The notes beneath the pieces were generated by a model. The model worked only from the letters and a program-made list of their open reading frames with translations. It did not search any database and had not been told where the DNA came from. The translations under genes and the position numbers were made by a program. DNA of 64,000 nucleotides from an uncultured Mollicutes bacterium (GTDB lineage Bacteria; Bacillota_I; Bacilli_A; RF39; UBA660). Shown one piece after another: positions 1,384-62,102 of the stretch; the first letter of the stretch is position 1; each line of letters begins with the position of its first letter. The stretch lies in contig CANTCS010000001.1 of assembly GCA_947652375.1 (NCBI GenBank), forward strand, positions 132,976 to 196,975, given 5' to 3'.

Positions 1384-1410
1384 AATTTACTCCTCCAAAC
1401 CTCTATGTCC

Positions 1411-1432
1411 TTGTGGTAATAAATTACCACAA
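1411..1432. repeat. Perfect palindrome TTGTGGTAAT-AA-ATTACCACAA. Its right half carries the putative attR core TTACCACAA (1424..1432)
   Basis: The 9-bp core is identical to the last codons plus stop of secA at 7405..7413. Flanks also match (about 15/19). See mobile element. Confidence 0.55.
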
Positions 1433-1445
1433 TATTTAATTCTAT

Positions 1446-3339: not shown

Positions 3340-3560
3340 TTTGTTCCCCTCTCGAATCTTTTTAAACTATCCTTATTAAATCTAATTCAAATTGACTACC
3401 AACTTCAAAGAATTTTATTTCATCATCTCCATCAAATAAATAATAAACTTTGTTATTTATTACTTTAATGATAGTTAGAAAATACCCATGGTTATCAGAT
3501 AAGGTATTATATATTTTATACCTTTCCTTCTCTTTATAGTTTATTTAATCACCTCTTTTA

Positions 3561-3697
3561 GTTCATGATAGTAAACTTTTCTAATTAAAAAATAAAATAT
3601 ATTACTACATCTAAATGTGAAAAGTTTATAATACCTTTTCAAAGCACAATAACATCTACCACCTCCACTAAATCTAAAGTAGTTCACGATAGTAAAC
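3561..3697. repeat. Two direct copies of a 16-19 bp motif (TA)GTTCAYGATAGTAAAC(T) at 3561..3576 and 3682..3697
   Basis: Read directly. Related inverted copies occur at 4438..4453 and 4481..4496. Operator- or iteron-like. Confidence 0.6.
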
Positions 3698-3815
3698 TCT
3701 TTATACTAAAATAATAACCTTTTATTTAATAAAAGTCAATAACTTATTTTTATTTTTTATTTTTATAAACAAAACTGTATAGAATATCTATACAGTTCGT
3801 ACACACTTCAGTATT

Positions 3816-4118
3816 TTATGAATTTAATATTTTATCTAAAACATCTAAGGTTTTATCTAAGGATTCTTCATCTTCAACTGAAATTGTACTCACAGTACCA
3901 ATTATTTCTAATAGTCTTTCTAATTTTACTGCTGAAGAATTACAAAATAAAAGTTCTTTTTTCGTTTTATTGTAATCAGTTTCAATTTCCAAAATCTTTT
4001 TTACAACTTCTTCCATTACTTCATAAGGTATATCTTTCTTTTCTTCAAGATACTTTTCAATTTTTACTCCTAAAACTACTTCTACTTCTTTTACTGCATT
4101 TCTTTCTTCTTTAGTCAT
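3816..4118 (-). CDS. Hypothetical helical protein (island)
   Basis: The ORF runs to 4184 but the likely start is MTKEERNAV at 4118 (RBS AAGGAA about 10 nt upstream). It sits 3 nt after the stop of the upstream 64-aa ORF. Confidence 0.4.
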   Translation of the reverse strand: MTKEERNAVKEVEVVLGVKIEKYLEEKKDIPYEVMEEVVKKILEIETDYNKTKKELLFCNSSAVKLERLLEIIGTVSTISVEDEESLDKTLDVLDKILNS

Positions 4119-4120
4119 TT

Positions 4121-4315
4121 TTATTTTTCCTTTCCAATTGGTACTGCTTCTTGTGATGCCTTCTCCCTCAACTGCTTTAGACATACTTCCAAGATCTGAA
4201 TCACAGATTCATCATCCAATTGGCTTGTTGTACTTAGTTCTATATTTTTATTTGCAACTAAAATTTTGATACAACTCATCTGTTTTGAAGACTGCCCTTT
4301 ATTCAAAAATTTCAC
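4121..4315 (-). CDS. Hypothetical small protein (island)
   Basis: 64-aa ORF, first gene of a leftward operon divergent from the XRE-like gene. Confidence 0.3.
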   Translation of the reverse strand: MKFLNKGQSSKQMSCIKILVANKNIELSTTSQLDDESVIQILEVCLKQLREKASQEAVPIGKEK

Positions 4316-4437
4316 CTGCCTTTCTAATAGTCAGGATGAAAGTATCACCCATCTTACTATTTTCATTGCCTTACTCCTCCACTTCAAATATATAGTTTAA
4401 TACTATATAAAATATTTTATCATTTATTTCTTTTTGT

Positions 4438-4496
4438 GTCTACTATCGTGAACTTATTTTGGCTTTTATTGATTAATTAGGTTCACAATGGTAGAC
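4438..4496. promoter_or_regulatory. Inverted repeat GTCTACTATCGTGAAC (27 bp) GTTCACAATGGTAGAC in the divergent promoter region. Putative operator
   Basis: Read in sequence. The half-sites relate to the direct repeats at 3561/3682. Located between divergently transcribed genes (4315 minus, 4555 plus). Confidence 0.5.
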
Positions 4497-4554
4497 AATA
4501 TTATAAAAAAATAGTACAATGTTGATGATGTGATTATAACGAAAGGAGATAAAA

Positions 4555-4956
4555 ATGACTAAAGAAGAAGCCATCAGGTTTATAATTTCCGATTATTGTA
4601 AAATTCATAAAATTACGCCTACACAATTTGCAAGAGAAAGTGGGATTAGTAAAGCCTATATGAGTAAGATTATGAAAAAAAAGTATGGCAAAGTTGGTAT
4701 TTCCATGACTTATACTGAATTAATAGCTAAAGGAATGAAAATGAATATGATTGATTTTCAAAAATTAATTGAACAGTATAAGGAAAAAAATAATAGCACC
4801 AATTATAACCACGATACTGATATTCTTATAGCTCAAATTAATAATGAACTATATAATTTATCAAAAGAAGACTTAGAAGTAATACATAGTATTATAGTGA
4901 ATTCTGATTCTGGAAAATTAGATATTCTACATAATGTTTTGAAAAATATGAAATAA
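4555..4956 (+). CDS. XRE-family HTH transcriptional regulator (phage repressor/cro-like)
   Basis: ITPTQFARESGISKAYMSKIM helix-turn-helix. RBS GGAGA upstream of ATG 4555. Confidence 0.55.
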   Translation: MTKEEAIRFIISDYCKIHKITPTQFARESGISKAYMSKIMKKKYGKVGISMTYTELIAKGMKMNMIDFQKLIEQYKEKNNSTNYNHDTDILIAQINNELYNLSKEDLEVIHSIIVNSDSGKLDILHNVLKNMK

Positions 4957-4972
4957 CATATTTTTTTATTTT

Positions 4973-5836
4973 TTAATAATCTCTATCATAAAAGTCGTTT
5001 TCTTCTTCAAATTCAAGCTCCTTAAACCAACCAGTTTCTGGATCTATTTCCAATTTATCATTTATTCTTAATCTTTCAATGCAATTATTAATTGCTCCTT
5101 GAAAAAATCCAAACTTATTCTCTACTTTGTTACCATTTTCATCAATAAAATGTTTTGAAACTACTATTGGCACAATATAATGTGTCATTTTAACTAGATC
5201 CTTATATGAGTGTCCTTGCTGCAATAAATTTTCAAAATAATTGTCGTAATTGTATATATCAGTATCATATTCATCTATATAATTTTTTTCAATTAAATAA
5301 AGAGTTAAAGGATTTAATTCATCTAAATCGACGAATGGCAAATTTTCTTTAACTCTTTTAACTATTTGTTCTTTAATATTTTGTTTATTAGTATTTATTT
5401 GGGTATCCTTTTCGGCATCTCCTTCAACGGTATTCCCTTTTTGGGCATCTGGATTATCCTGTTGTTTTTCAACCTCTAATGGAATTTCACGAATAATATA
5501 TTCGTACTTATAATATCCTTTATCTCCTCTTGTTTGTTGTATTTCTAAATAGCCATGTTCTTTAAGTTCATTAAGTATAGTTCTTATGGCTTTAATATTT
5601 TCTTTACTAACTGCTACTAACCCTTTCATAGAGTAATCCCAATCTTCAGGCAAACTTAACATGAATGATAGTAGACCTTTTGCTTTATAAGAAAGATTTC
5701 TATCTTGCAAATGATAATTGCTCATAACTGTATAATTCTTTTGTTTTTTTATTTTAAATACTGCCATTACAATCACCCTTTCTTTTATTTTTAAACATTT
5801 AAAAAAGAACTGAATCTTGTCCAGTTCTATATTCAT
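4973..5836 (-). CDS. Replication initiator protein A N-terminal (RepA_N)-type winged-helix initiator
   Basis: FKIKKQKNYTVMSNYHLQDRNLSYKAKGLLSFMLSLPEDWDYSMKGL...ELKEHGYLEIQQTRGDKGYYKYEYII matches RepA_N of Firmicute plasmids, ICEs and phages. Confidence 0.6.
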   Translation of the reverse strand: MNIELDKIQFFFKCLKIKERVIVMAVFKIKKQKNYTVMSNYHLQDRNLSYKAKGLLSFMLSLPEDWDYSMKGLVAVSKENIKAIRTILNELKEHGYLEIQQTRGDKGYYKYEYIIREIPLEVEKQQDNPDAQKGNTVEGDAEKDTQINTNKQNIKEQIVKRVKENLPFVDLDELNPLTLYLIEKNYIDEYDTDIYNYDNYFENLLQQGHSYKDLVKMTHYIVPIVVSKHFIDENGNKVENKFGFFQGAINNCIERLRINDKLEIDPETGWFKELEFEEENDFYDRDY

Positions 5837-5852
5837 ATAATAACAGTTGTTA

Positions 5853-7166
5853 TCACGAAATTGATTCTGTAGGTTTCCTTGCTATAGCAATTTCTAAAGA
5901 GTCTGCATAATCTTCAAATTTACTAACTACTTCTTCTTCCATTTGAATTGTAACTCTTACATAAATGTTATAAGTTGTTTCAATCGTACTATGTCCTAAT
6001 CTTTTTGAAACAGCTTTTATATCTGCTCCTGCTTCAATTAGTCTAGTTGCATGTGTATCTCTAAAATCGTGAAATCTGCAAGGTATTCCTAACTCATAGT
6101 GAATTACTTTAAATGGATATTTACAAGTATTATTTCCCTCAAATGCTCCATTATTTTTTATAAATACTAAGTGTACTTCAGGTAAAGCAACATCAATTTC
6201 TGCAATACAATCAACTATTTTAGTTTCTGGTTTATTTGTATATGGATTTAAAACTTCTTTAGCATAATGTTTGATGTATGAATCTCCATATTGTTCTTTA
6301 TATATTTCTTGCTCTTCTTTAAATTCTTTTAAAGCAGCTGCTAATGTATCTCCAATATCAATTGTTCTGTAACTAGCTTTTGTTTTACACGGACCAAAAT
6401 ACCAAACAGTAGTCCTTTGCCCTTTTATAAGTCTGTGCTTTGTTCCACCCACTTGATTTTTTTCAACAATATTTTTATTTACTGTTAATTTCTTGTTTTC
6501 TAAATCAATGTCTTCCCATGTCAATCCAAATACTTCTGAAATTCTAAGCCCAGTATAATATGCCGTTAAAAAAGCATAATATATACAATGACTATTTTTA
6601 AATCTATTAAAAATCATTTCTATTTCTTCTGGTGTAAAAATATGAGCTGGATCTTCATCTGGACCATCATATCTTGGTAATCTTATTTTCAATGCTGGAT
6701 TATGCTTAATGAATCCGACACCATCTTCAGCATAAGCGAATGATGATTTTAAAACTTTCATTATACTTTTTAAAAAGTTTTTTGATACTCCTTTATTCAA
6801 AAATACATCTGTAAGAAAGTCATTTAATGTAGCTGTATCTATTTGCGATAACCTATAAAATCCTAGTTTTGGTTTAACATGATTTTTAATAATGCTTTTA
6901 TATGCCTCTATCGTATTATACCTTAGATTAATTTGACAATAGTTAGCCATCCAATAATCCAAAAAATCTGCATATGAACATGTATTAGGAGAAAATTTTT
7001 TACCTGTATTCATATATTCATTAAATGCTTTCATACCAGCAACATAAGCATCCTGCTTTGTCTTGAAACCTGACTTGTTAATAAACTTTCTAACTCCACC
7101 TTGTGGAGCTATTTCAAATCTATATTGATATAGATTTCCTCTTTTTGTTACATTCACTTTTCCCAT
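5853..7166 (-). CDS. int: Tyrosine-type site-specific recombinase / phage integrase
   Basis: C-terminal HDFRDTHATRLIEAGADIKAVSKRLGHSTIETTYNIYVRV (H-x-x-R...Y catalytic motifs). N-terminal arm-binding-like domain (GKVNVTKRGNLYQYRFE...). Confidence 0.85.
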   Translation of the reverse strand: MGKVNVTKRGNLYQYRFEIAPQGGVRKFINKSGFKTKQDAYVAGMKAFNEYMNTGKKFSPNTCSYADFLDYWMANYCQINLRYNTIEAYKSIIKNHVKPKLGFYRLSQIDTATLNDFLTDVFLNKGVSKNFLKSIMKVLKSSFAYAEDGVGFIKHNPALKIRLPRYDGPDEDPAHIFTPEEIEMIFNRFKNSHCIYYAFLTAYYTGLRISEVFGLTWEDIDLENKKLTVNKNIVEKNQVGGTKHRLIKGQRTTVWYFGPCKTKASYRTIDIGDTLAAALKEFKEEQEIYKEQYGDSYIKHYAKEVLNPYTNKPETKIVDCIAEIDVALPEVHLVFIKNNGAFEGNNTCKYPFKVIHYELGIPCRFHDFRDTHATRLIEAGADIKAVSKRLGHSTIETTYNIYVRVTIQMEEEVVSKFEDYADSLEIAIARKPTESIS

Positions 7167-7196
7167 AACTTCCTCCTCTAAATTTCTTTAGAGAAC

Positions 7197-7220
7197 GAAA
7201 AAATCAGCACGAATGCTGAT
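7197..7220 (-). terminator. Rho-independent terminator (stem ATCAGCA/TGCTGAT, then T-run on the minus strand) between secA and int
   Basis: cgaaaaaatcagcacgaatgctgat read in sequence. Would terminate secA read-through before int. Confidence 0.55.
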
Positions 7221-11436: not shown

Positions 11437-11589
11437 ACCTCTATAGCACCTCACATTCTACCATCTATTATTTCTATTGGTGATTTAATCTTAACAAATA
11501 TTTCCTTAATTTATTAATTTTTCTATAAATTGCTTTTTTTGAGAATGTTTTTGAGATGATTTCTACATTTTTCGACAAATTAGAATATT

Positions 11590-12306
11590 TTATATATCTC
11601 TTAGATAGGAAATTAACTCTTTCTTTTTATTTCTTGAAATAAAATTAATACTTTCTTTATTTCTAAAAATTATTATATTCTCTTTAGTGTTGTAATATTC
11701 CACTTGATCCATATTTATAATATAGCTTCTACTACACTTTATAAATCTTCTATCTAATTTTTCTTCTAAGATTTTCATATTTCCAGAATATTCAAATTCT
11801 TCTTCTTTTGTTTTTATAATACATTTTTTACTCTCTTTTTCTTTTTCTATATATATTATATTTGAAAAGCTAATATTGTAAATAGTATTTTTATAAATAT
11901 ATTTTAAAGTGTTTGGTCTTGAATCATAATTTTTTAAAGCTATATTAAATGCTGTTTCTAATTTTTTTTCATAACTTGTATCTGTTGTTAATAAATAATC
12001 AATGTACATGAATCGATGGTTAATAATTTCATATTTTAAATTATTGGACGTAGTTTTAAAAATCATCATAGATTGCCAATCACATAAATCAATTCTTAAG
12101 TATTTAGCTAAATTTAAGCCAAGATTATTTTTTATATCAGTGTTTATTAGAAATATTTTAAAGTTTTCTTTAGTTATTTTATCTTGCCAATTTGAGGATA
12201 ATTTTAAAATAGTAGTTTTGTATTCATAGTCATAATTCATCATTACTTTATCTATTAACATTTTATTAATTGTAGGGTTTTCATCAAAGATTAGAAACTC
12301 AACCAT
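11590..12306 (-). CDS. LytTR-family response-regulator-like protein (orphan, no adjacent kinase)
   Basis: C-terminal ...RRFIKCSRSYIINMDQV...IIFRNKESINFISRNKKKELISYL = LytTR DNA-binding domain. Divergent receiver-like N-terminus. Start MVEFLIF with RBS AGGAGG. Confidence 0.6.
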   Translation of the reverse strand: MVEFLIFDENPTINKMLIDKVMMNYDYEYKTTILKLSSNWQDKITKENFKIFLINTDIKNNLGLNLAKYLRIDLCDWQSMMIFKTTSNNLKYEIINHRFMYIDYLLTTDTSYEKKLETAFNIALKNYDSRPNTLKYIYKNTIYNISFSNIIYIEKEKESKKCIIKTKEEEFEYSGNMKILEEKLDRRFIKCSRSYIINMDQVEYYNTKENIIIFRNKESINFISRNKKKELISYLRDI

Positions 12307-12360
12307 ATATATTACCTCCTTTTTAATTCTCCTATATAAGGATAACATAAAAGAGCATTA

Positions 12361-14598: not shown

Positions 14599-15228
14599 TT
14601 AGTTTTTCTTTTCTTCTACTTCTTTATTTAAGTAATTAATTGGATTAACAGCTTGTCCATTTTCATAGATTTCAAAATGTAAATGATTTCCTAATTCTTT
14701 ATCTAATTCATTTGTTCCACTTTTTCCTAAAACTTGTCCTTGTGTTATGACATCACCTTTTTTTACACTTATTTCACTTAAGCTTTGGTATGTTGATATT
14801 AAGCCATTTTCATGTTTAATTTCAATTATTTTTCCTAATGTTTCATCTTCTTTTACTGTAATTACAGTTCCCTCTAGTATAGCAACTACATCAAATACTT
14901 TAGCAGAAATATAATCGATTCCTGTATTTTGTATATATGTATTTTCATGAACTATAATAGATTTTTTTTGTTCTTCTTCGCCACCTTGATAATCATAGTA
15001 TCCTTTACCAACTGTAACAGATGGATCAGTATAAGGATTGATAATTGATTTAGTTGTATTTACCACTGGTTGAGTTTCATTTATAATTTCTTTTGTTACA
15101 TGACTTGGCTCTTCAATATCAGTTTTTAAAGACTGTTTTGTTAAAAAAACTATAGTTAAAACTGGAACTAAAATTAATAACATAACTACGATAGGAAATA
15201 CCTTTAATCTTACTTTCTTTTTGATCAT
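14599..15228 (-). CDS. Membrane-anchored M23 (LytM) family metallopeptidase
   Basis: N-terminal TM. C-terminal ...HLHFEIYENGQAVNP M23 HxH motif. Confidence 0.75.
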   Translation of the reverse strand: MIKKKVRLKVFPIVVMLLILVPVLTIVFLTKQSLKTDIEEPSHVTKEIINETQPVVNTTKSIINPYTDPSVTVGKGYYDYQGGEEEQKKSIIVHENTYIQNTGIDYISAKVFDVVAILEGTVITVKEDETLGKIIEIKHENGLISTYQSLSEISVKKGDVITQGQVLGKSGTNELDKELGNHLHFEIYENGQAVNPINYLNKEVEEKKN

Positions 15229-17034: not shown

Positions 17035-17108
17035 ACTATTATTCTCCTTCCGCCATGACAAAGTTTTTGTCATAGTAATTAAATCGCGTAACTAATATAT
17101 CAAATTTT

Positions 17109-20595: not shown

Positions 20596-21105
20596 TTAAA
20601 AGTATTTATCCATTACTTCTTTTATTAAAGATTTATATTCAATATCATTTTCCTCATCAATCATACATAGCGGAGGAAATAAAACACACCAAAAGTTTTT
20701 TCCTTGTCCGTTTCCTAAAGTTATTACTAATGATTCATATTCTCCTGCTTCATATATGACATCATTATATATTTTTTCAGGAAAATAATTTTTTCCATAA
20801 TTTATGTGGAAAGTTCTATTTTGATTCTTTTCTTTTAAAGTTTTATCCACAACTTTTTCTAATTGAGGAAGATTATTATTGATAAATTCCCTTGTTTCAT
20901 CGATTGTTTTTAAGTTATTTGATTGATTTATTGTTGTGGAAAGATTTGCAACTATCTCTTTTTTTAAATTTTGATCTTCAACTGTATCACTATTGGCTAT
21001 TATTCTAAATCTTATAGATTCTTTAGGAATAACTATTGTTTCTTCATCTTTATTAATAACTAAAATAGATATGGCTATAGCTAAAATTATAATAAGTTTT
21101 TTCAT
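20596..21105 (-). CDS. spoIIR: Stage II sporulation protein R
   Basis: VIPKESIRFRIIANSDTVEDQNLK and YEAGEYESLVITLGNGQGKNFWCVLFPPLC match SpoIIR signature blocks. Located next to prmC as in Bacillus. Confidence 0.8.
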   Translation of the reverse strand: MKKLIIILAIAISILVINKDEETIVIPKESIRFRIIANSDTVEDQNLKKEIVANLSTTINQSNNLKTIDETREFINNNLPQLEKVVDKTLKEKNQNRTFHINYGKNYFPEKIYNDVIYEAGEYESLVITLGNGQGKNFWCVLFPPLCMIDEENDIEYKSLIKEVMDKYF

Positions 21106-42781: not shown

Positions 42782-43601
42782 TATGCACCTCTATTTGTTG
42801 ATATGGTATTTTTATTTTTGCTTTATCCAATGCTTTTTTTATTTCTTTTTTTAAATATCTTTCTACTGCTATTTGTTTCATAGACTCTGTTTCAACTATA
42901 ATTCTATAAATTACTGAGGAATCAGATAATTCGTTGACTCCTAATAATTCTAAGTTATTAGTTGCATATGGAATTTTACCATTAAGCTCATTAAATAGTT
43001 CATTAAATACTTTTTCTATTTTTTCTTCTGAACATTCGTAAGCTACAGCAACATCTACAACTGCTAATGAATTATTATTACTATAATTGATTAAGTTATC
43101 CATATAATGATTAGATATTATTTTTATGGCACCTTTAAAATTCTTAATTCGAGTTGTTTTTAATCCTATTGAAACTACTTCTCCCATGAAACCATCTACT
43201 TCGATTGTGTCTCCAACTTCATAAAAATTTTCTGTTATAATTGTAAAGCCTGCTATTAAATCTTTGGCTAAATCTTGAAATGCTAATCCAATTAGTGCTG
43301 TTCCTATTCCAAGTCCTGCTAAAATTGATTTTACATTGATACCAAATTCCGATAAAATGGCTAATACAATTAAAGTTGATAATGTGTATTTTATAACATT
43401 TATTATTAAAATTTTTAAAGTATTTATCTTTTGTTTTTGATAATTTTTTAAATATTTTTCACTTTTTAAAGCTTTAGTAATAATTCTTTTTAGTAGTTTA
43501 AATAAAACAATTCCAACAAAAATGTATACAAATGATAAAATTATAGATTTAATTTTTAAAGAAATTCCAAATAAAGTTAACATATTATCTTTCGACCTCA
43601 A
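42771..43601 (-). CDS. Small-conductance mechanosensitive channel (MscS family)
   Basis: TM helices plus ...ITENFYEVGDTIEVDGFMGEVVSIGLKTTRIKN beta-domain. Confidence 0.8.
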   Translation of the reverse strand: MRSKDNMLTLFGISLKIKSIILSFVYIFVGIVLFKLLKRIITKALKSEKYLKNYQKQKINTLKILIINVIKYTLSTLIVLAILSEFGINVKSILAGLGIGTALIGLAFQDLAKDLIAGFTIITENFYEVGDTIEVDGFMGEVVSIGLKTTRIKNFKGAIKIISNHYMDNLINYSNNNSLAVVDVAVAYECSEEKIEKVFNELFNELNGKIPYATNNLELLGVNELSDSSVIYRIIVETESMKQIAVERYLKKEIKKALDKAKIKIPYQQIEVHNGK

Positions 43602-44505
43602 TATTTAAAATTTCTAGAATTCTATTTAAATCATTTCCATTGACAAAACTAATTTCAATTTTATTCTTTTTGATAAGAACTTTTGTACCTAATTTATCGC
43701 TTAGTTCATTTTGTAAATAATTATATTCACTATAATTATTTTCTCGATGATGTTGTGGATTTGCTTTAACAATTGTTGGAGCTTTAGTTAAATCTTCTAA
43801 TTCTCTAACACTAATTCCCTCATTTAAAACTTTATTAACTAATTCTTGTTGCTGATTACTATTTTCTAATTTGCTTAAAACTCGTGCATGTCCCATTGAA
43901 ATATTTTTTTTACTAATTTCATTTTGAATATTAAGAGGTAATGTTAACAAACCTAACATATTAGTAATATGACTTCGGCTTTTTCCTAATCTTTTTGCTA
44001 ATTGGTCTTGAGTTATGGAAAGTGTATCTAATAATTTTCTATATGCAGTAGCTTCTTCTATTGATGTTAAGTTTTCTCTTTGAAGATTTTCAAGTAAGGC
44101 TATTTCCATCATTTGTGTATCATTAAAATCTCTAATTATTGCAGGAATTTCTGTTTTTCCTGCCATAAGAGATGCTTTTACTCTTCGCTCACCAGCTATA
44201 ATTTCGTAACCTTTTATAGATTTTTTTACTATTATTGGTTGAAATACTCCATGTTCTTTTATTGAATTTGCTAATTCTTCTAAAGCTGTTTCATCAAATA
44301 TCTTTCTTGGCTGATAAGGGTTACTTCTTAGTTCATTTAAAGATATCATAGTTATTTCATCTTTTGATGAATCTTTAACTATTTTTTCTTCTACTGCACT
44401 ATAATCTAAAACTTCACTATTAAATAATTCTTCTAAGCCTCTTCCTAAAGCTCTTCTTTTTGGAATTCCACTTTCATTTATATTATTTGTTTCCATTTCT
44501 TTCAA
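43585..44505 (-). CDS. parB: Chromosome partitioning protein ParB/Spo0J
   Basis: ParB box GERRVKAS, HTH, 306 aa. Immediately downstream of parA. Confidence 0.92.
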   Translation of the reverse strand: MKEMETNNINESGIPKRRALGRGLEELFNSEVLDYSAVEEKIVKDSSKDEITMISLNELRSNPYQPRKIFDETALEELANSIKEHGVFQPIIVKKSIKGYEIIAGERRVKASLMAGKTEIPAIIRDFNDTQMMEIALLENLQRENLTSIEEATAYRKLLDTLSITQDQLAKRLGKSRSHITNMLGLLTLPLNIQNEISKKNISMGHARVLSKLENSNQQQELVNKVLNEGISVRELEDLTKAPTIVKANPQHHRENNYSEYNYLQNELSDKLGTKVLIKKNKIEISFVNGNDLNRILEILNIEVER

Positions 44506-45402: not shown

Positions 45403-46683
45403 TTAATTATTATCTTTATCTAATTTTATAATTATTTGATATGATTTTTCAAAATTCATTTCATCTGTATTAACTGTAATTCCATGTTGTTCTAAATCTT
45501 CAACTAAATTTCTTATTTTTTCTGTTGCCTCTTCTATACTATAATTTTCTTTTGTATAAGTATTAATTGATTCATTAAAATTAGAAATTTCAGGGATATT
45601 TATTGATGATAAATCAGGTGTTTTAAAATAGTCTTCTTGATTATTTTCTAGTGGATCTGTTTTTACAATTTTTTCTGCTGGTGTTATAAAATTATCACTC
45701 ATTTTATTATTAATTGATCCATTTATATTTAAAAGACTATCTAGATCTCCTCCTATTGCTGAAGTATTAATATCTTCAGAGTTGTTTTTTATACTATTTA
45801 TATCTACTGTTGAAATAGCTGGAGGGATATCAAAAGAATTACCATCATCTTCATCCTCATCTTCTTCGATTTCTCCATAGTTTATGAATTTATTAATAGG
45901 AGCTTCCTCTCCAACAGGAGGTGCAATTGTTACTTTGCCATAATTAGATTTATCTTCAGGTAAATCAGCAGTTGGAATTAATGGATTATCATTAACATAT
46001 GCATTAGATAATTCACTTATATCTTTAGGTGGAAGAGGAATATAATTGTTATTCATATCATCTGATTCTTCTTTATTATAGATATTTTTTATTTCTTCTT
46101 CTAATAATCGTACACTCATTTTATTTTCTATTACTTTTTTTAACATTTCTTTTTGATTTTTTGCATCTGGGATGTTTAATAAAGTCCTTGCATGTCTTTC
46201 TGAGATTTGTTCTTTTAATAAAGCATCTTGAATTTCATCTGGTAATGTTAATAATCTTATTTTATTTGCTACTGCCGATTGACTTTTTCCCATTGTTTTA
46301 GCTAGGTCTTGTTGAGTCATCTCATCAAGTTCAATTATTTTTTGGTAAGTTCTTGCTTCTTCTATGGGATTTAAATTTTTTCTTTGTAAGTTTTCTAATA
46401 AAGCGACTTTTGAACTTTCTTTATCATCTAAATCTCTTATAATAGCGGGTATTTTTGTCATTCCTGCTAAGGCTGAGGCTTTATATCTTCTTTCTCCTGC
46501 AATAATTTCATATTTACCATTAACATTTCTTACAATTATTGGTTGAATAACACCATGTTCTTTTATTGAAACTGCTAATTCTTTTAGTGCTTTCTCGTCA
46601 AATATTTCTCGTGGTTGAAATCTATTTGGAATTATATCATCTAAATATAGTTGAACAACTTCATCTTTTATGTCTTGATACAT
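45403..46683 (-). CDS. noc: ParB-family paralog in the Noc position, with ~170-aa acidic/Asn-rich C-terminal extension
   Basis: N-terminal ParB domain (GERRYKASALAG) plus HTH. C-terminal low-complexity region (EEDEDEDDG, N-rich). 426 aa, versus about 280 for typical Noc. Confidence 0.7.
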   Translation of the reverse strand: MYQDIKDEVVQLYLDDIIPNRFQPREIFDEKALKELAVSIKEHGVIQPIIVRNVNGKYEIIAGERRYKASALAGMTKIPAIIRDLDDKESSKVALLENLQRKNLNPIEEARTYQKIIELDEMTQQDLAKTMGKSQSAVANKIRLLTLPDEIQDALLKEQISERHARTLLNIPDAKNQKEMLKKVIENKMSVRLLEEEIKNIYNKEESDDMNNNYIPLPPKDISELSNAYVNDNPLIPTADLPEDKSNYGKVTIAPPVGEEAPINKFINYGEIEEDEDEDDGNSFDIPPAISTVDINSIKNNSEDINTSAIGGDLDSLLNINGSINNKMSDNFITPAEKIVKTDPLENNQEDYFKTPDLSSINIPEISNFNESINTYTKENYSIEEATEKIRNLVEDLEQHGITVNTDEMNFEKSYQIIIKLDKDNN

Positions 46684-55350: not shown

Positions 55351-55473
55351 TCTTCCACCTCCAGACATAAATCTACATTATTATAATAATATAATTTCTA
55401 TTTTGTCAATTAAAACTTAGTATTTCAAAAACAATTTTTAAAATTAGATTACTTGTTTAGACATTATTCGACA

Positions 55474-55615
55474 TCTTTCCACATTTCCACATAATTGTTT
55501 AAAATTTTTTTTATTATGTTAAAAGAAAAATTGTGGAAAATGTGGAAAAGTTAAATTTTTGTTTATTTTTCTATAAAATAATTGTTGAAAAAACTGTGGA
55601 ATTTTAGTGGAAAAT
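55474..55615. promoter_or_regulatory. oriC DnaA-box cluster upstream of dnaA (6 boxes of type TTTTCCACA / TGTGGAAAA)
   Basis: Boxes at about 55474..55483 and 55482..55491 (one orientation), and at 55533..55541, 55541..55549, 55595..55603, 55607..55615 (the other). Confidence 0.8.
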
Positions 55616-55698
55616 AATTTTTAAAGAAAAATTGTTTTCTTTTTCCTCAATTTAATGTAGAATAAAACATATTTATTAATCTTGTGGGGAGATGGTGT

Positions 55699-57075
55699 AT
55701 GATGAATGTTGATATTTTATGGTCTAATTTACTTAGTCAAATAAAAGAAGACCTAACTTCACTTTCATACACTACTTGGTTCTCTGACACAAAACTACAT
55801 AAATTTGATAATGGAAAAGCTTATATTATAGTTCCTATGCCTATCCATAAAAAACATTTAATTGATAATTATTCTCAATTAATCGTTGATAAATTAAAGG
55901 AATTAACTGGATCGAATTATGAAATTGTTTTACTTTTAGAAGAAGAAATTGAATCTGAGTTAAAAAACAAAGTAACTAATAGTGAAATAAGCTTAAATGT
56001 TTCAAATGATACAAATAATGTTAATTCAAATTTAAATATAAAATATTTATTTGATAATTTTATTGTTGGGAATAGTAATAAGTTTGCTCATGCTGCAGCA
56101 TTATCAGTTGCTGAAAATCCTGGAAATATGTATAATCCTTTATTTATATATGGAAATAGTGGTTTAGGAAAGACACATTTAATGCATGCAATTGGAAATT
56201 ATATTGTTGAAAACTCAAATAAAAAAGTATTATATGTAACTAGTGAACAATTTAGGCAAGATTTTGTTAAGGCTAATCGAAAAGATGACAAAGGTACTAA
56301 TTTTAATTATATAGATTTCTTTAAAAATAAGTATCGAAATATTGATGTTTTAATAATAGATGATATACAATTTTTAGGGGGAGCCAATCAATCTCAACAA
56401 GAATTTTTCCATACTTTTAATAATTTATATAATGATAGTAAACAAATTATTATATCTTCTGATAGATCTCCTGAGGATCTTAAGTTATTAGAAGATAGAC
56501 TTCGAACAAGATTTTGTTGGGGTTTAACAGTCAATATTTTTCCTCCAGAATTTTCTCTGCGAACAGAAATATTAAAGAAAAAAATTATAGCTGGTAATTT
56601 TGAACAGGATATTCCTGATGAAGTAGTGGAGTACATTGCTTCTAATATTGGACCAGATGTTAGGCAACTAGAAGGATCCGTTACTAGACTTATTGCATAT
56701 TCTGCTATAATGGGAGGAGAAACTATAAATCTTGACCTTGCTATTGAAGCTTTAAAAGACTTTATTAGTAAGGGAATAGGGGAGAAGAATGATGTTCACA
56801 GAATTCAGAAAATAGTATCAGAATACTTTCAAATTTCTGTTGAAGATATAAGGAGTAAAAAAAGAAGCTCTAATATTTCATTTCCTAGACAAATAGCAAT
56901 GTATTTATGTAGAACAATGACTAGTGAATCTTTTCCTAAAATAGGAACAGAATTTGGGGGAAAAGATCATTCTACAGTAATGCATTCTGTTGAAAAAATA
57001 GAAAATGAAATTAAAGTTAATAAAGATTTAGCTAATATAATTGAAAAATTAAAGAAAGATATTGGAATTGTGTAA
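55699..57075 (+). CDS. dnaA: Chromosomal replication initiator DnaA
   Basis: AAA+ Walker A GNSGLGKTHL. C-terminal DNA-binding domain. RBS GGGGAG 8 nt before ATG 55699 (the ORF track starts at GTG 55684). Confidence 0.95.
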   Translation: MMNVDILWSNLLSQIKEDLTSLSYTTWFSDTKLHKFDNGKAYIIVPMPIHKKHLIDNYSQLIVDKLKELTGSNYEIVLLLEEEIESELKNKVTNSEISLNVSNDTNNVNSNLNIKYLFDNFIVGNSNKFAHAAALSVAENPGNMYNPLFIYGNSGLGKTHLMHAIGNYIVENSNKKVLYVTSEQFRQDFVKANRKDDKGTNFNYIDFFKNKYRNIDVLIIDDIQFLGGANQSQQEFFHTFNNLYNDSKQIIISSDRSPEDLKLLEDRLRTRFCWGLTVNIFPPEFSLRTEILKKKIIAGNFEQDIPDEVVEYIASNIGPDVRQLEGSVTRLIAYSAIMGGETINLDLAIEALKDFISKGIGEKNDVHRIQKIVSEYFQISVEDIRSKKRSSNISFPRQIAMYLCRTMTSESFPKIGTEFGGKDHSTVMHSVEKIENEIKVNKDLANIIEKLKKDIGIV

Positions 57076-57205: not shown

Positions 57206-58333
57206 ATGAAATTTACAATAAAGAAAGAATTATTACTTGAAGCTCTTAGTAAGGTATCTAAGGCAATATCGACAAAAAATTTAATACCTGTATTAGCAGG
57301 AGTTAAATTTGAATTAAAAAAGAAAAAATTAACATTAACAGCAAGTGATAACGATATTACGATTCAAACAACTATTGATTCAACTAATGAAGAAGATTTT
57401 AAAATTGAAAATGAGGGTAGTATTATAATACAAGGAAAATATATTTTGGATATTGTTAGAAAACTTCCTGAAAAGTATATTAATATAGAAGTTATAGATG
57501 AACTTAAAATATTAATTTATACTGAGAATAGTGAATTTAATTTAAATGGTATTAGTGAAAGTGAATATCCTAATGTTGGCTTAGAAGAAAGTAAGAAAAA
57601 AATTAATATTAAAGTTGGTACTTTAAAAAATATTGTTTTTCAAACTGCTTTTGCCTCTTCTAATGAAGAAAGTAAGCCTGTATTAACTGGTATTAATTTT
57701 AATATAGTAGGGGATATATTAGAATGTAATTCTACTGACTCATATCGTTTAGCTAGAAAAATTATTAAGTTAGATAATGTTAGTGAAGAAAATTATAATA
57801 TTGTAATTCCAAGTCATAATTTACTTGAATTTACAAAAATTTTAGGAAATGATGAGGAAAATATAGAATTACATGTTTTTAATAATAAAATATTATTTAA
57901 ATCAGGTAATTTAAAATTTGAATCTAGATTGATTAATGGTACTTATCCAAATACTTCTAATTTATTACCAGATGAATCTTTATTGATTGTTAAAACAAAT
58001 TTAAATGATTTTTATAATATGATTGATAGAGTAAGTATTTTAACTAGTGATAAAGAAAAAAATATTGTTACTTTAGAAACACAAGGTAATACTTTGGTTT
58101 TAAAAAGTAGTTCTGTTGAAATTGGTAGAGTTGAAGAGAAAATGTTAATTAATAAAAATAATGAAGAAAATATTAAAATATCTTTTAGTGCAAAATATAT
58201 GATGGAGGCTTTAAAAAGTTTTTCCACAGAAAATGTGGAATTACATTTCGTTGGTGAAATAAAACCAATTTTGATAAAGTCTACTGAAGATGAGAGTTTA
58301 ACTCAATTAGTTTTACCTATTAGAACTTATTAA
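57206..58333 (+). CDS. dnaN: DNA polymerase III beta sliding clamp
   Basis: 375 aa, MKFTIKKELLLEALSKVSKAIS... three-domain clamp. Confidence 0.93.
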   Translation: MKFTIKKELLLEALSKVSKAISTKNLIPVLAGVKFELKKKKLTLTASDNDITIQTTIDSTNEEDFKIENEGSIIIQGKYILDIVRKLPEKYINIEVIDELKILIYTENSEFNLNGISESEYPNVGLEESKKKINIKVGTLKNIVFQTAFASSNEESKPVLTGINFNIVGDILECNSTDSYRLARKIIKLDNVSEENYNIVIPSHNLLEFTKILGNDEENIELHVFNNKILFKSGNLKFESRLINGTYPNTSNLLPDESLLIVKTNLNDFYNMIDRVSILTSDKEKNIVTLETQGNTLVLKSSSVEIGRVEEKMLINKNNEENIKISFSAKYMMEALKSFSTENVELHFVGEIKPILIKSTEDESLTQLVLPIRTY

Positions 58334-58496
58334 AGAGATTTTTTCTCTTTTTTTGTTTGTTAAAGAAATTTTTGTGTATTATAAATATAGAAATAATGTT
58401 TTTAACTTATTTCGACTTTATTAGTTATAATTCGATTTAGTTTTATGATATTTTAACGAAGAAGCAAAAATTTGCTTTAAATAGGGGGAAATAATT

Positions 58497-58943
58497 ATGA
58501 AATATGAAATAAGTAAGGGTACTTTAGCAGTAGTACCAAATGAATGTAGTAGCAGTTTAATTTATGAGGATGAAAGTAGATATGTCATTGACGAAAACCC
58601 TTTCAAAATTATGGATGATAGCTGTAAATATTTTGGAAGTACATATGAAGGTAGAAAAAATGGAGCTAGGGATATACTGGGAGCAGAATACAAAGTTCCA
58701 ATAGTCATTGAAGATTCAGATAATTTAATTGTATTTCCAACTACTTCTCCATCTTCTGATGATTGTGCTTGGATTACTTTAAAAAGAGTAAAAAAACTAG
58801 AGAAAATTGATTCTTGTAATACAAAGATAATTTTTGATAATAATGTGGAAATTATTGTTCCATCTTCATTTAGGTCAATGGAAAATCAACTTTCAAGAGC
58901 ATCGAGATTAGATTTAATTTTGAGAAATCATAAAAATAGTTAA
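58497..58943 (+). CDS. ComK-family protein (short, N-terminal domain only) in the usual yaaA slot between dnaN and recF
   Basis: YEISKGTLAVVPNE / IMDDSCKYFGSTYEGRKNGA / KVPIVIEDSDNLIVFPTTSPSSDDCAWITLKRV / SFRSMENQLSRASRL align block-by-block with B. subtilis ComK (as recalled from memory). Lacks the ~45 C-terminal residues. Confidence 0.6.
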   Translation: MKYEISKGTLAVVPNECSSSLIYEDESRYVIDENPFKIMDDSCKYFGSTYEGRKNGARDILGAEYKVPIVIEDSDNLIVFPTTSPSSDDCAWITLKRVKKLEKIDSCNTKIIFDNNVEIIVPSSFRSMENQLSRASRLDLILRNHKNS

Positions 58944-59057
58944 AAATAACTATTTTTTTATGTTTTTAAGCTCATTTTGTGATATAATTGATGTGTATGT
59001 ATAGGAATACTGAGATTAGGGGATAGGTGATTATATGAGTCTTTTTGATATCTTTAA

Positions 59058-60170
59058 ATGAAAATTAATAAAATAAACCTACTTAGTTTTAGAAATTATT
59101 CTAAATTATCAGTTTCTTTGGGAAAAAACATGAATATTTTTGTGGGAGATAATGCTCAGGGAAAAACAAATATTTTAGAAGCCATTACTATATTAGCTTT
59201 AACTAAGTCTCATAGAATAGGTAATAATCCTAATATTATTATGTTTGGTCGCAATAAATGTAAAATAAACGGAGTTATAAAAAGCGATAAAATTATTTCT
59301 AATTTAGAAGTAGAAATTATTGATGATTTAAAAAAATTAAGAATAAATAAAACTGATATAAAAAAAGTATCTGATTATATATCACATTTAAATATAATAG
59401 TTTTTACTCCTGATGATTTAGAAATAATTAAAGGTTCACCTAATATACGAAGAAATCTTTTAAATATTCAGTTATCGCAATTAGATCATGATTATATAAA
59501 ATATTATAATGAATATAATAAATTATTAAAAACAAGGAATGAATATTTAAAAATACTTTTTAATAATAGTATTGCTGATAATAATTATTTAGATATAATT
59601 ACTGATAAATTAATAGAAAAGGCAATATTTATTTATCAAAAAAGAAAAAAGTATATTGATTTTATAAATATGAATATTAATGAATGTTTTCATGCTATTT
59701 CTAAGGAAAGAGGATTATATATCAAATATAATACTAATATTAATTTAGAAAACTTTGATTATGAAAGTATTCGAAAAAAGTTAAAACATTTTTATAAAAA
59801 AAATTATATGAAAGAACTTAATTATGGTATGACTATATATGGTCCTCATAGAGATGACTTTAATTTTGAATTTAATGATAAAGATTTAAAAATATTTGGT
59901 TCCCAGGGACAACAAAAGTTGGCAATTTTGTCTTTTAAATTATCTGAAATTCCAATATTTAAAGAATATTGTGGTACTGAACCAGTTTTATTACTTGATG
60001 ATATTTTTAGTGAATTGGATATAAAAAAGAGAAATAAATTGTTAAAAATAATAAATTTGGATAATCTTCAATGTATTATTACAACAACTGATTTAAAAAA
60101 TATTAATAAAAAATATATTGAAAATGCAACAATTTTCAATGTTAAAAATGGAAATATAGAAAGAAAGTAG
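59058..60170 (+). CDS. recF: DNA replication and repair protein RecF
   Basis: Walker A GDNAQGKTNILEAI. SMC-like signature and D-loop near the C-terminus. Confidence 0.93.
   Translation: MKINKINLLSFRNYSKLSVSLGKNMNIFVGDNAQGKTNILEAITILALTKSHRIGNNPNIIMFGRNKCKINGVIKSDKIISNLEVEIIDDLKKLRINKTDIKKVSDYISHLNIIVFTPDDLEIIKGSPNIRRNLLNIQLSQLDHDYIKYYNEYNKLLKTRNEYLKILFNNSIADNNYLDIITDKLIEKAIFIYQKRKKYIDFINMNINECFHAISKERGLYIKYNTNINLENFDYESIRKKLKHFYKKNYMKELNYGMTIYGPHRDDFNFEFNDKDLKIFGSQGQQKLAILSFKLSEIPIFKEYCGTEPVLLLDDIFSELDIKKRNKLLKIINLDNLQCIITTTDLKNINKKYIENATIFNVKNGNIERK

Positions 60171-62102
<1,932 letters not shown>

What the first reader, a model, noticed from the sequence alone, without database searches (positions are those of the whole stretch)
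58497..58943. ComK-like competence regulator in the dnaN-recF intergenic slot
The 148-aa product aligns block-by-block with the N-terminal two-thirds of B. subtilis ComK but lacks the C-terminal ~45 residues. It occupies the position normally taken by the small S4-domain protein YaaA within the dnaA-dnaN-recF-gyrB operon. A competence master-regulator homolog at the origin, next to recF, is an unusual arrangement. It may couple transformation or DNA-repair genes to replication-origin dosage.
Basis: partly seen in the sequence, partly recalled or inferred. Interest (0 to 1): 0.55.

Follow-up and report, generated by a model that had tools for sequence, protein, structure and literature searches.

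The report
Tail-less ComK gene beside the origin
The ORF is a real, intact, short-form member of the ComK family of competence regulators. It is a self-contained gene fixed between dnaN and recF in a very large group of uncultured low-GC gut bacteria, and its promoter carries what look like binding sites for the sporulation regulator Spo0A.

Summary
ORF 58497-58943 (+) encodes 148 aa that match Pfam ComK (E=1e-41) across the whole domain and align with verified B. subtilis ComK (33% identity, E=6e-32). What is missing is B. subtilis' ~32-residue disordered C-terminal tail and ~9 N-terminal residues, not part of the fold (AlphaFold pLDDT 94; dN/dS about 0.16).

Such ~150-aa ComKs form a large subfamily. 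The dnaA-dnaN-comK-recF-gyrB order is the rule, not an oddity. It holds in all 42 related species genomes and in about 70 of 80 distant metagenomic loci.

The gene does not look like an operon passenger. It has an intrinsic-terminator-like hairpin on each side, its own extended -10 promoter, a 5'-UTR hairpin and a strong ribosome-binding site.

Across the clade the promoter lacks a -35. In its place are three boxes, TTYGACAAA, spaced exactly 10 bp apart. This is the reverse complement of the Spo0A box TGTCGAA. The boxes are eroded in this window. The window also carries spoIIR and a spoIIQ-like gene.

Spo0A control, and any role in DNA uptake, are inferred. No spo0A or com genes could be reached. 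It is a new member of a known kind, of moderate interest.

The parts
58332..58357 (+). Intrinsic-terminator-like hairpin plus T-run just after the dnaN stop codon
   Evidence: RNA fold gives dG -6.3 kcal/mol, z = -3.2. A hairpin plus T-run lies in the dnaN-comK spacer in most of the 41 species, with different, mutually complementary stems such as AGAGA/TCTCT, GAGGA/TCCTC and GTGGA/TCCAC (judged by eye). The generic terminator scan missed it because it requires at least 3 G-C pairs.
58366..58392 (+). Conserved box of unknown role (window TTTTTGTGTATTATAAATATAGAA; clade consensus about TTGCGAATAATATAAATAGAA)
   Evidence: It is conserved in the close clade. In some species it lies before the terminator hairpin rather than after it. 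It remains unexplained.
58410..58439 (+). Three 10-bp-phased boxes. The clade consensus is TTTCGACAAA three times, which is the reverse complement of the Spo0A box TGTCGAA. The window copies are eroded: TTTCGACTTT / ATTAGTTATA / ATTCGATTTA.
   Evidence: An ungapped alignment of 38 species anchored on the -10 puts the cores at -33..-29, -23..-19 and -13..-9. Information content peaks at C, G and C, and the G position is C in only 1 of 114 boxes. The window's triple score is 16.2, against a 99th percentile of 7.1 for random windows. The array recurs in 69 of 77 distant loci. The motif occurs at 7.8 per kb here against 0.13 per kb in coding DNA.
58446..58454 (+). Extended -10 promoter element of comK (TGATATTTT), with no -35 hexamer at 17 +/- 1 bp
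   Evidence: TGnTAnnnN is present about 50 nt upstream of the ATG in 38 of 41 species. In the clade consensus the TTGACA-like boxes lie 11 and 21 bp from the -10 hexamer. This is a sequence inference only; no transcription start site data exist.
58461..58478 (+). 5'-UTR stem-loop just upstream of the ribosome-binding site
   Evidence: dG -6.1 kcal/mol, z = -2.8 in the window. 32 of 41 species have z below -2 for the same stretch, most with a single hairpin there, and the stems differ between species, for example GAAAGC/GCTTTC, GGAAAC/GTTTCC and GGAAGCC/GGCTTCC. RNAalifold on a MAFFT alignment failed to register it.
58483..58489 (+). Shine-Dalgarno sequence AGGGGGA
   Evidence: GGGG is invariant in the 29-species alignment of the leader.
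58497..58943 (+). comK-family gene, short form, 148 aa
   Evidence: Pfam ComK E=1.1e-41. 33% identity to B. subtilis ComK. AlphaFold2 pLDDT 94.1 and pTM 0.89. dN/dS about 0.16. Public sources already name close homologues 'competence protein ComK'.
58932..58959 (+). AT-rich hairpin plus T-run that looks like an intrinsic terminator and overlaps the comK stop codon
   Evidence: dG -7.2 kcal/mol, z = -5.3. Stems differ but stay complementary across species, for example TAGTTA/TAACTA, TAGCC/GGCTA and TAGTC/GACTA (judged by eye).
58980..59061 (+). Neighbouring unit, not part of comK: the recF promoter (extended -10 TGATATAAT, 58980-58988), a near-invariant leader, and an 8-codon upstream ORF (59035-59061, MSLFDIFK*) whose TGA overlaps the recF ATG
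   Evidence: The leader is at least 90% identical in many columns across 43 species. The upstream ORF is present in 41 of 43 species with the pattern M-x-L-[FL]-x-G-F-K. There is no significant RNA structure (z = +1.1) and no significant Rfam match (best E 4.6 and 9.3).

Best explanation
The ORF encodes a functional DNA-binding transcription factor of the ComK family. It belongs to a widespread short subfamily of about 150 aa that consists of the ComK fold alone.

Shown: family membership, a complete and confidently predicted fold, purifying selection, and a fixed position between dnaN and recF next to oriC across a deep radiation of uncultured bacteria with 20-32% GC, mostly from gut and rumen.

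Shown from sequence and conservation: it looks like a monocistronic unit. Terminator-like hairpins bracket it. It has its own extended -10 promoter, a 5'-UTR hairpin and a strong ribosome-binding site. recF has a separate promoter.

Inferred (about 50%): transcription is switched on or gated by Spo0A~P. The promoter has no usable -35. In the clade consensus it carries three head-to-tail TTYGACAAA boxes with an exact 10-bp period, spanning roughly -24 to -48. This is the 0A box in the orientation and position that I recall for Spo0A-activated sigma-A promoters. In B. subtilis Spo0A~P binds PcomK directly.

Inferred (about 40-50%): the product binds A/T-rich sites as dimers and controls DNA-uptake or recombination genes. 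It lacks the disordered tail that B. subtilis ComK needs for cooperativity between boxes and for activation. It therefore probably acts box by box, or as a ComK2-like modulator or repressor, rather than as a B. subtilis-style cooperative activator.
For: Identity: Pfam ComK E=1.1e-41 over 3-149 of 152 profile positions; BLASTP to verified COMK_BACSU gives E=6e-32.

Completeness: pLDDT 94.1, no disordered segment, and the model ends in a long helix at residues 125-147. Orthologues are 148-153 aa in 43 of 43 species. dN/dS is 0.16. Of the 150 nearest family representatives, 77 are 140-159 aa and 34 are 180-209 aa.

Synteny: 42 of 42 species genomes. About 70 of 80 metagenomic loci also share it, although their ComK is only 34-48% identical and their dnaN as little as 44% identical.

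Autonomy: hairpins and promoters.

Boxes: PWM consensus TTTCGACAAA, exact 10-bp phasing, and information peaks at the three base pairs that Spo0A contacts, G2, C4 and G5 of TGTCGAA (PMC3485338). A PWM trained only on the close clade finds the array in 69 of 77 independent distant loci, above the 99th percentile of random windows. The boxes are distinct from DnaA boxes in sequence and in distribution.

Precedent: Spo0A~P binds three activator and two operator sites in B. subtilis PcomK (PMC3297582).

Sporulation genes in the window: spoIIR (Pfam E=3e-39, TIGR02837 E=1e-43) and a spoIIQ-like M23 protein (NF053738 E=2e-50). Walled families of the uncultured orders RFN20, RF39 and ML615J-28 are reported to encode spo0A (PMC10868615).

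Consequences of lacking the tail: removing 35 aa from B. subtilis ComK abolishes activity and cooperativity between boxes but keeps dimer binding within a box (bioRxiv 10.64898/2026.03.17.710445). Deleting 25 aa keeps DNA binding but loses comG activation, and B. cereus ComK2, which lacks 22 aa, lowers comG expression (PMC3128618). S. aureus ComK2, which lacks the C-terminal helix of ComK1, represses competence (PMC12491500).
Against: No spo0A gene, no com or DNA-uptake gene and no K-box target could be examined, because only 64 kb plus origin-proximal loci were accessible.

In this window and its two nearest relatives the boxes are eroded. Box 1 matches 6 of 7 core positions, box 3 matches 5 of 7, and box 2 is poor. 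Control here may be weak or lost.

The same boxes could be the short ComK's own operator. No transcription start sites or expression data exist. NCBIfam has no model that matches the protein. K-box scans in the window are at chance level. The spoIIQ and spoIIR hits fall below NCBI's curated cut-offs.
Confidence: 0.6

Rival explanations
1. comK is a passenger of the dnaA-dnaN-recF-gyrB operon. Its position next to the origin couples competence or repair to replication initiation through gene dosage.
For: The position next to oriC is kept across a very deep radiation, which suggests that location itself is under selection. A second conserved context also lies among DNA-metabolism genes: pcrA-ligA-comK-gatCAB in 7 loci.
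Against: Terminator-like hairpins with T-runs after dnaN and after comK, with stems that differ but stay complementary between species. comK and recF each have a private promoter. Dosage and promoter control do not exclude each other. Nothing here measures dosage.
Confidence: 0.15
2. The three phased boxes are the short ComK's own binding sites. They would provide positive or negative autoregulation and would not be Spo0A sites.
For: B. subtilis ComK activates its own promoter (PMC3297582 abstract). Each 10-bp unit holds an A-tract in helical phase. The boxes accompany short comK in both genomic contexts. The predicted fold weakly resembles LytTR domains, which from my own knowledge bind direct repeats.
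Against: The conserved positions are C, G and C, not the A/T tracts. The unit is not A4-N5-T4. The core equals TGTCGAA base for base, and its information peaks fall on the bases Spo0A contacts. The same motif is about 6-fold enriched in the oriC spacer upstream of dnaA compared with two other spacers, the dnaA-dnaN and comK-recF spacers. Spo0A is known to bind oriC in B. subtilis (established knowledge).
Confidence: 0.15
3. The protein is a ComK-fold regulator that no longer controls DNA uptake, or never did. It might instead control replication, repair, growth arrest or sporulation-linked genes.
For: It lacks the tail that B. subtilis ComK needs for activation. Both conserved neighbourhoods are DNA-metabolism genes. 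No com gene lies in the 64 kb, and the comF position upstream of hpf-secA (position from my own knowledge of the B. subtilis map) is taken by a LytTR regulator. Short ComK2 proteins modulate competence rather than drive it.
Against: There is no positive evidence for other targets. Gene neighbourhood is weak evidence for a stand-alone regulator. The rest of the genome was not seen.
Confidence: 0.3
4. The boxes are weak DnaA boxes, so DnaA controls comK.
For: The local DnaA box TTTTCCACA differs from TTTCGACA at one core position. oriC is adjacent.
Against: The discriminating position is C in only 1 of 114 boxes (G in 87 of 114, and in 67 of 76 for boxes 2 and 3). DnaA boxes reach 9.8-10.8 per kb in the two oriC spacers but only 1.2 per kb here. 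TTYGACA shows the reverse pattern.
Confidence: 0.03
5. The ORF is a decaying remnant of a full-length comK.
For: It is 44 aa shorter than B. subtilis ComK.
Against: The full Pfam domain is present. pLDDT is 94. dN/dS is 0.16 and length is conserved in 43 of 43 species. The short form also occurs in thousands of protein clusters (3503 at 90% identity).
Confidence: 0.02

Closest known systems
B. subtilis ComK (COMK_BACSU, 192 aa), master regulator of competence and the K-state
   Same: Same Pfam family. 33% identity over the whole ComK domain. Monocistronic gene. The B. subtilis promoter is bound directly by Spo0A~P (PMC3297582), which parallels the 0A-like array here.
   Different: About 32 C-terminal residues are absent. 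These form the disordered tail needed for cooperativity between boxes and for activation. About 9 N-terminal residues are also absent. The genomic position differs: it sits between dnaN and recF at oriC, whereas B. subtilis comK lies elsewhere on the chromosome and yaaA/rlbA occupies this slot (established knowledge). The promoter is much simpler, with three phased boxes and an extended -10. The targets are unknown.
Short ComK paralogues: B. cereus ComK2 and S. aureus ComK2
   Same: ComK fold without the C-terminal region (PMC3128618, PMC12491500). This predicts DNA binding without B. subtilis-type activation.
   Different: Those proteins are second copies beside a long ComK1, in cultured Bacillales and Staphylococcus. 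Here the short form is the copy conserved at the origin, and whether a long paralogue exists is unknown. Sequence relatedness to ComK2 was not tested, because I had no verified ComK2 sequences.
Spo0A-dependent sigma-A promoters (spoIIG, spoIIE, B. subtilis PcomK)
   Same: Tandem 0A boxes (TGTCGAA core) in helical phase, overlapping a missing or mis-spaced -35 (PMC3485338; the spoIIG and spoIIE architecture is from my own knowledge).
   Different: No Spo0A protein or gene has been shown for this lineage. There are three evenly spaced boxes instead of the irregular activator and operator sites of B. subtilis PcomK.
YaaA/RlbA, the S4-domain protein in the dnaN-recF slot of B. subtilis
   Same: Only the map position.
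   Different: No sequence relationship. The only significant Pfam hit is ComK.

Membership tests
ComK family (Pfam PF06338) | Significant match to the family HMM above the curated threshold | tested here: met
   142.6 bits against a cut-off of 22.3, E=1.1e-41.
ComK family (Pfam PF06338) | Coverage of the whole domain, so that it is not a fragment | tested here: met
   Profile positions 3-149 of 152 are matched. The AlphaFold2 model has pLDDT 94.1 with no low-confidence segment.
ComK family (Pfam PF06338) | Direct similarity to the experimentally characterised B. subtilis ComK | tested here: met
   33% identity, E=6e-32, against a sequence verified as COMK_BACSU.
B. subtilis-type ComK (cooperative activator) | C-terminal disordered tail of about 35 aa, required for cooperativity between boxes and for activation | tested here: not met
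   There are 10 residues after the position equivalent to B. subtilis residue 150, against 42 in B. subtilis. The role of the tail is described.
B. subtilis-type ComK (cooperative activator) | Binds K-boxes (A4N5T4, a spacer of 8, 18 or 31 bp, then A4N5T4) upstream of late com genes | tested here: inconclusive
   One hit for each spacer tested (8 and 18 bp) in 64 kb, against 0.5-0.6 expected. The window holds no com genes, so the test has no power.
B. subtilis-type ComK (cooperative activator) | Controls the comG, comE, comF, dprA and ssbB genes and confers transformability | not testable with these tools
Short ComK (ComK2-like) | ComK fold without the C-terminal region | tested here: met
   77 of the 150 nearest representatives are 140-159 aa.
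Short ComK (ComK2-like) | Negative or modulatory effect on competence genes | not testable with these tools
   This needs genetics or in-vitro transcription.
Spo0A-controlled promoter | One or more 0A boxes (TGTCGAA core) with the contacted bases G2, C4 and G5 conserved | tested here: met
   The clade consensus TTCGACA is the reverse complement, and information peaks at exactly those three positions. In the window itself box 1 matches 6 of 7, box 3 matches 5 of 7, and box 2 is poor.
Spo0A-controlled promoter | Tandem boxes in helical phase overlapping a weak or mis-spaced -35 | tested here: met
   Exact 10-bp period. The boxes lie 11 and 21 bp from the -10 hexamer. An extended -10 is present in 38 of 41 species.
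Spo0A-controlled promoter | The organism encodes Spo0A | not testable with these tools
   The support is indirect only: spoIIR and a spoIIQ-like gene in the window, and a report of spo0A in walled families of the related uncultured orders.
dnaA-dnaN-recF-gyrB operon member | Co-transcription with the flanking genes, with no intervening terminator or promoter | tested here: not met
   Terminator-like hairpins at 58332-58357 and 58932-58959, and separate extended -10 promoters for comK and recF. This is sequence-based; there are no RNA data.
YaaA/RlbA (S4-domain protein of this slot in B. subtilis) | S4 RNA-binding domain | tested here: not met
   No S4 hit even at E up to 10.

The most novel reading that the evidence does not exclude
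The tail-less, roughly 150-aa ComK could be a distinct and possibly ancestral class of regulator, hard-wired next to oriC in a huge uncultured radiation of gut and rumen Bacilli. It would be switched on by Spo0A~P through a minimal three-box promoter. Entry into sporulation or stationary phase would then be tied directly to a ComK programme, either DNA uptake and repair or a K-state-like arrest of replication and growth. It would act without the cooperative, bistable activation that defines B. subtilis ComK.
Probability: 0.2. Interest if true: 0.65.

Novelty: new member of a known kind. Interest (0 to 1): 0.4.

Why it matters
ComK has been studied almost only in Bacillus, Staphylococcus and Listeria. 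Here a short ComK proves to be a fixed feature of the origin region in a very large group of uncultured, small-genome bacteria, many of them from gut and rumen samples. Homologues fall into thousands of protein clusters at 90% identity. Its promoter has a simple, deeply conserved architecture that can be tested directly.

If Spo0A drives it, these organisms link a competence-type regulator to sporulation entry more directly than B. subtilis does. That would bear on gene exchange and persistence in gut communities.

The natural tail-less proteins are also ready-made controls for current work on the disordered tail of ComK and DNA-mediated cooperativity.

If none of this holds, the result is still useful. 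The gene is an ordinary, correctly annotatable ComK homologue, and its position is a lineage trait, not an anomaly.

Tried and rejected
- **K-box scans.** This is uninformative.
- **Exact TTCGACA count in the window.** 3 found against 2.5 expected. The signal lies in cross-species conservation, not in this window's counts. A strict search for tandem boxes in the window found none, because its own boxes are eroded.
- **DnaA-box reading.** Rejected on base frequencies and on distribution.
- **CtsR operator (GGTCAAA direct repeats; consensus from my own knowledge).** The base after GAC is A in 28-32 of 38 species, where CtsR needs a pyrimidine. Rejected by inspection.
- **CodY box (AATTTTCWGAAAATT; consensus from my own knowledge).** An 11 of 15 match arises only from the A/T flanks, and the conserved C-G-n-C pattern does not fit C-W-G. 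Rejected by inspection.
- **Rfam.** Nothing significant in 58300-59120.
- **RNAalifold on the 5' UTR.** It returned no pairs because MAFFT misaligned the 3' arm. Folding each sequence on its own showed the hairpin.
- **recF leader as a structured RNA.** No structure, z = +1.1.
- **PDB sequence searches.** Neither the window protein nor B. subtilis ComK has a solved homologue in the copy searched.
- **NCBIfam.** No model matches the protein.
- **Metagenome scan.** The 25-sequence alignment was too diverse to scan with, so a 7-sequence alignment was used.
- **Placing the lineage taxonomically.** Source names and the literature on the genome-bin identifiers gave only 'Bacilli bacterium' or 'Firmicutes bacterium'.
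- **Literature on comK between dnaN and recF.** Nothing relevant found.
Full report
**1. The observation**

Window 58497-58943 (+) is an ATG-to-TAA ORF of 148 aa. On its left are rnpA and rpmH on the minus strand, then dnaA (55684-57075) and dnaN (57206-58333). On its right are recF (59058-60170) and gyrB (60180-62102). The window has about 25% G+C. GC skew changes sign near 55.4 kb. DnaA-box variants TTTTCCACA lie upstream of dnaA and between dnaA and dnaN. The locus is therefore the chromosomal origin.

The product matches Pfam ComK (PF06338) with E=1.1e-41 and 142.6 bits against a cut-off of 22.3. The match covers profile positions 3-149 of 152. NCBIfam has no model that matches it.

I checked my own recalled copy by exact look-up, and it is COMK_BACSU. 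BLASTP gives 33% identity and E=6e-32, with residues 3-138 aligned to 12-150.

**2. 'Truncated' is the wrong word**

The ComK domain of B. subtilis is residues 10-158 of 192. The window protein contains that whole domain. Beyond the residue equivalent to B. subtilis 150 it has 10 residues, where B. subtilis has 42. It also lacks about 9 N-terminal residues.

An AlphaFold2 model built on a 43-sequence alignment has pLDDT 94.1 and pTM 0.89, with no low-confidence segment. It ends in a long helix at residues 125-147.

A full HMMER scan of 1.84 billion cluster representatives found 1195 relatives at E up to 0.001. Among the best 150, 77 are 140-159 aa and 34 are 180-209 aa. The 150-aa form is thus a large natural subfamily.

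In 42 related species genomes the orthologue is always intact at 148-153 aa. The median dN/dS is 0.16, and it is 0.07-0.10 against the nearest relatives.

**3. What the missing tail means**

The literature on the tail is consistent.
- The last 35 residues or so of B. subtilis ComK are intrinsically disordered. Removing them abolishes transcriptional activity and cooperativity between the two boxes. Dimer cooperativity within a box is kept (bioRxiv 10.64898/2026.03.17.710445).
- Deleting 25 residues preserves DNA binding but loses comG activation. B. cereus ComK2, which lacks 22 residues, lowers comG expression (PMC3128618).
- S. aureus ComK2 lacks the C-terminal helix of ComK1 and represses competence (PMC12491500).

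A natural tail-less ComK should therefore bind DNA. It is unlikely to behave as a B. subtilis-type cooperative activator. This is an inference from homologues and was not shown here.

**4. The arrangement is a clade trait**

A scan of one genome per species found 42 loci with ComK 65-85% identical to the window's. All are bins from uncultured 'Bacilli', 'Erysipelotrichaceae', 'Tenericutes' or similar labels, from human, goat, rumen, rabbit and mouse gut. Every locus long enough shows rnpA-rpmH, then dnaA-dnaN-comK-recF-gyrB.

I then scanned metagenome contigs with an alignment of distant short ComKs. Most of the 80 loci returned carry a ComK only 34-48% identical to the window's. About 70 of them have the same order, even where dnaN is only 44-55% identical and G+C ranges from 20% to 32%.

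Seven loci show a second recurring context, pcrA-ligA-comK-gatCAB.

Named homologues are only 'MAG: competence protein ComK [Bacilli bacterium]' and the like. I could not place the lineage more exactly. I found no paper that describes comK at this position.

**5. The gene is its own transcription unit**

I aligned the dnaN-comK spacer of 41 species and then aligned the promoters without gaps, anchored on the -10. These alignments, with the downstream-spacer alignment, reveal a constant anatomy.
- **dnaN terminator.** A hairpin plus T-run follows dnaN. The stems differ between species but stay complementary. In the window it lies at 58332-58357 (dG -6.3, z -3.2).
- **Three 10-bp units** at window 58410-58439.
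- **Extended -10.** TGnTAnnnN occurs in 38 of 41 species. In the window it is TGATATTTT at 58446-58454.
- **5'-UTR hairpin** at 58461-58478 (z -2.8). 32 of 41 species have z below -2, and the stems vary.
- **Ribosome-binding site** AGGGGGA.
- **comK terminator.** An AT-rich hairpin plus T-run overlaps the stop codon at 58932-58959 (dG -7.2, z -5.3). Its stems also differ but stay complementary across species.

recF then has its own near-perfect extended -10 at 58980-58988.

These are sequence-level inferences, because no RNA data exist. They argue against simple co-transcription with dnaA and dnaN.

**6. The three boxes**

Anchored on the -10, the cores fall at -33..-29, -23..-19 and -13..-9, an exact 10-bp period. 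The unit consensus is TTTCGACAAA. The positions with most information are C, G and C.

The reverse complement of the 7-bp core is TGTCGAA. This is the 0A box of Spo0A, which contacts G2, C4 and G5 of that motif and is flanked by A/T. The specificity is shared by Bacillus and Clostridioides Spo0A (PMC3485338). The three contacted base pairs are exactly the three information peaks.

The TTGACA-like boxes lie 11 and 21 bp from the -10 hexamer, so there is no usable -35. From my own knowledge, this resembles the Spo0A-activated spoIIG and spoIIE promoters.

They are not DnaA boxes. The discriminating position is C in only 1 of 114 boxes. Across all loci the two motifs are distributed in opposite ways.

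| Region | TTYGACA per kb | DnaA boxes per kb |
|---|---|---|
| dnaN-comK spacer | 7.8 | 1.2 |
| rpmH-dnaA spacer | 1.4 | 9.8 |
| dnaA-dnaN spacer | 0.24 | 10.8 |
| comK-recF spacer | 0.20 | 1.7 |
| Coding DNA | 0.13 | 0.41 |

A PWM trained only on the close clade scores 69 of 77 independent distant comK upstream regions above the 99th percentile of random windows from the same loci. The array is therefore old and under selection.

In B. subtilis Spo0A~P binds PcomK directly at three activator and two operator sites (PMC3297582).

**7. Does the lineage have Spo0A?**

The evidence is indirect.
- The window encodes SpoIIR (Pfam E=3e-39; TIGR02837 E=1e-43, 148.6 bits against a cut-off of 151.9).
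- Next to mbl it encodes an M23 protein whose best NCBIfam hit is SpoIIQ (E=2e-50, but 171 bits against a cut-off of 250).
- By eye, it also encodes murA, a class A PBP and mreB/mbl.
- Walled families of the uncultured Bacilli orders RFN20, RF39 and ML615J-28 are reported to encode spo0A and to be predicted spore formers. Two RFN20 families lack it (PMC10868615).

One caution applies. In this window and its two closest relatives the boxes are degraded: TTTCGACT, TTAGTTAT and ATTCGATT. The triple score is 16, against up to 38 in other species, though still above the random 99th percentile of 7.

I put Spo0A control at about 50%. The main alternative is that the boxes are the short ComK's own operator.

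**8. What the protein regulates is open**

The 64 kb contains no comG, comE or comF genes. In B. subtilis the comF genes lie upstream of hpf-secA (from my own knowledge). That position holds a LytTR-domain protein here.

K-box scans are at chance level.

The best structural matches in the PDB are LytTR DNA-binding domains (3d6w, AgrA 4xqn, ComE 4cbv). They are weak, with E about 0.01-0.2 and TM-score 0.4-0.6. This is a lead, not a finding.

**9. Verdict**

The finding is real and its family assignment is right. The 'unusual' position is the standard position in a very large uncultured clade. The 'truncation' is a natural short class. The gene appears to be independently controlled rather than an operon passenger.

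The new elements are the depth of the synteny and the conserved three-box promoter with an extended -10. I file it as a new member of a known kind. Interest is moderate at 0.4. A less likely reading, at about 0.2, is that tail-less ComK is a Spo0A-triggered, origin-linked regulator with a role different from B. subtilis ComK.

Noticed in passing
window 58980-59061 (and all 42 related loci): The recF leader is more conserved than the flanking genes. It has an extended -10 TGGTATAAT, then GTATGTATAGGAATACTG..ATAGGGGATAGGTGATTATATG, then an 8-codon upstream ORF (M-x-L-[FL]-x-G-F-K*) whose TGA overlaps the recF ATG (ATGA). This is present in 41 of 43 species. recF itself has no Shine-Dalgarno sequence, and two gene calls in public data start it 24 codons late. 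This looks like translational coupling, and the near-invariant leader sequence might also be a protein-binding site. No RNA structure (z = +1.1) and no significant Rfam match.
   Followed up: partly
loci L058, L062, L080, L091, L094, L111, L122: There is a second recurring home for short ComK genes: pcrA-ligA-comK-(gatC-gatA-gatB). This is again among DNA-metabolism genes, and again there are 0A-like boxes upstream, though they are weaker. I do not know whether these are paralogues in the same genomes or the only copy in other lineages.
   Followed up: partly
window 55456-55485 (oriC, upstream of dnaA): Two 0A-like boxes (TTAGACA, TTCGACA) stand in 10-bp phase with a DnaA box (TTTCCACA). Across all loci, TTYGACA is about 6-fold enriched in the rpmH-dnaA spacer compared with two other spacers, the dnaA-dnaN and comK-recF spacers. 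This recalls Spo0A binding at B. subtilis oriC.
   Followed up: partly
window 20596-21105 (-) and 14599-15228 (-): Sporulation genes in a genome with 25% G+C: spoIIR (Pfam E=3e-39), and an M23 peptidase next to mbl whose best NCBIfam match is SpoIIQ (E=2e-50, below the curated cut-off).
   Followed up: partly
window 11590-12348 (-) and 11560-11589: A 252-aa protein has a C-terminal LytTR DNA-binding domain (E=1.7e-17) and no recognisable receiver domain. It sits upstream of hpf-secA, where B. subtilis has the comF genes. A tandem pair of 0A-like boxes, TTTCTACATTTTTCGACAAA, lies just beyond its stop codon.
   Followed up: no
window about 1-7200: A probable integrated mobile element lies next to secA. 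It includes a tyrosine-recombinase-like ORF (5853-7166, judged by eye), a replication or primosome-like ORF (4973-5836, by eye), a PemK/MazF-like ORF (2756-3103, by eye) and a small sigma/LuxR-type HTH protein (1446-1907, weak Pfam hits).
   Followed up: no
window 58366-58392: A conserved box (about TTGCGAATAATATAAATAGAA) lies between the dnaN terminator and the three boxes. In several species it lies before the terminator hairpin instead. Its function is unknown.
   Followed up: no
[not shown]
   Followed up: partly
window 43585-44505 (-) and 45403-46683 (-): Two ParB-type genes flank soj. One is Spo0J-like. The other is a 426-aa Noc-like protein with a long, acidic, low-complexity C-terminal extension. 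Judged by eye only.
   Followed up: no
window 17044-17075 (-): The only Rfam hit in the 64 kb above its gathering score is the L31-Firmicutes ribosomal-protein leader (36.2 bits).
   Followed up: no
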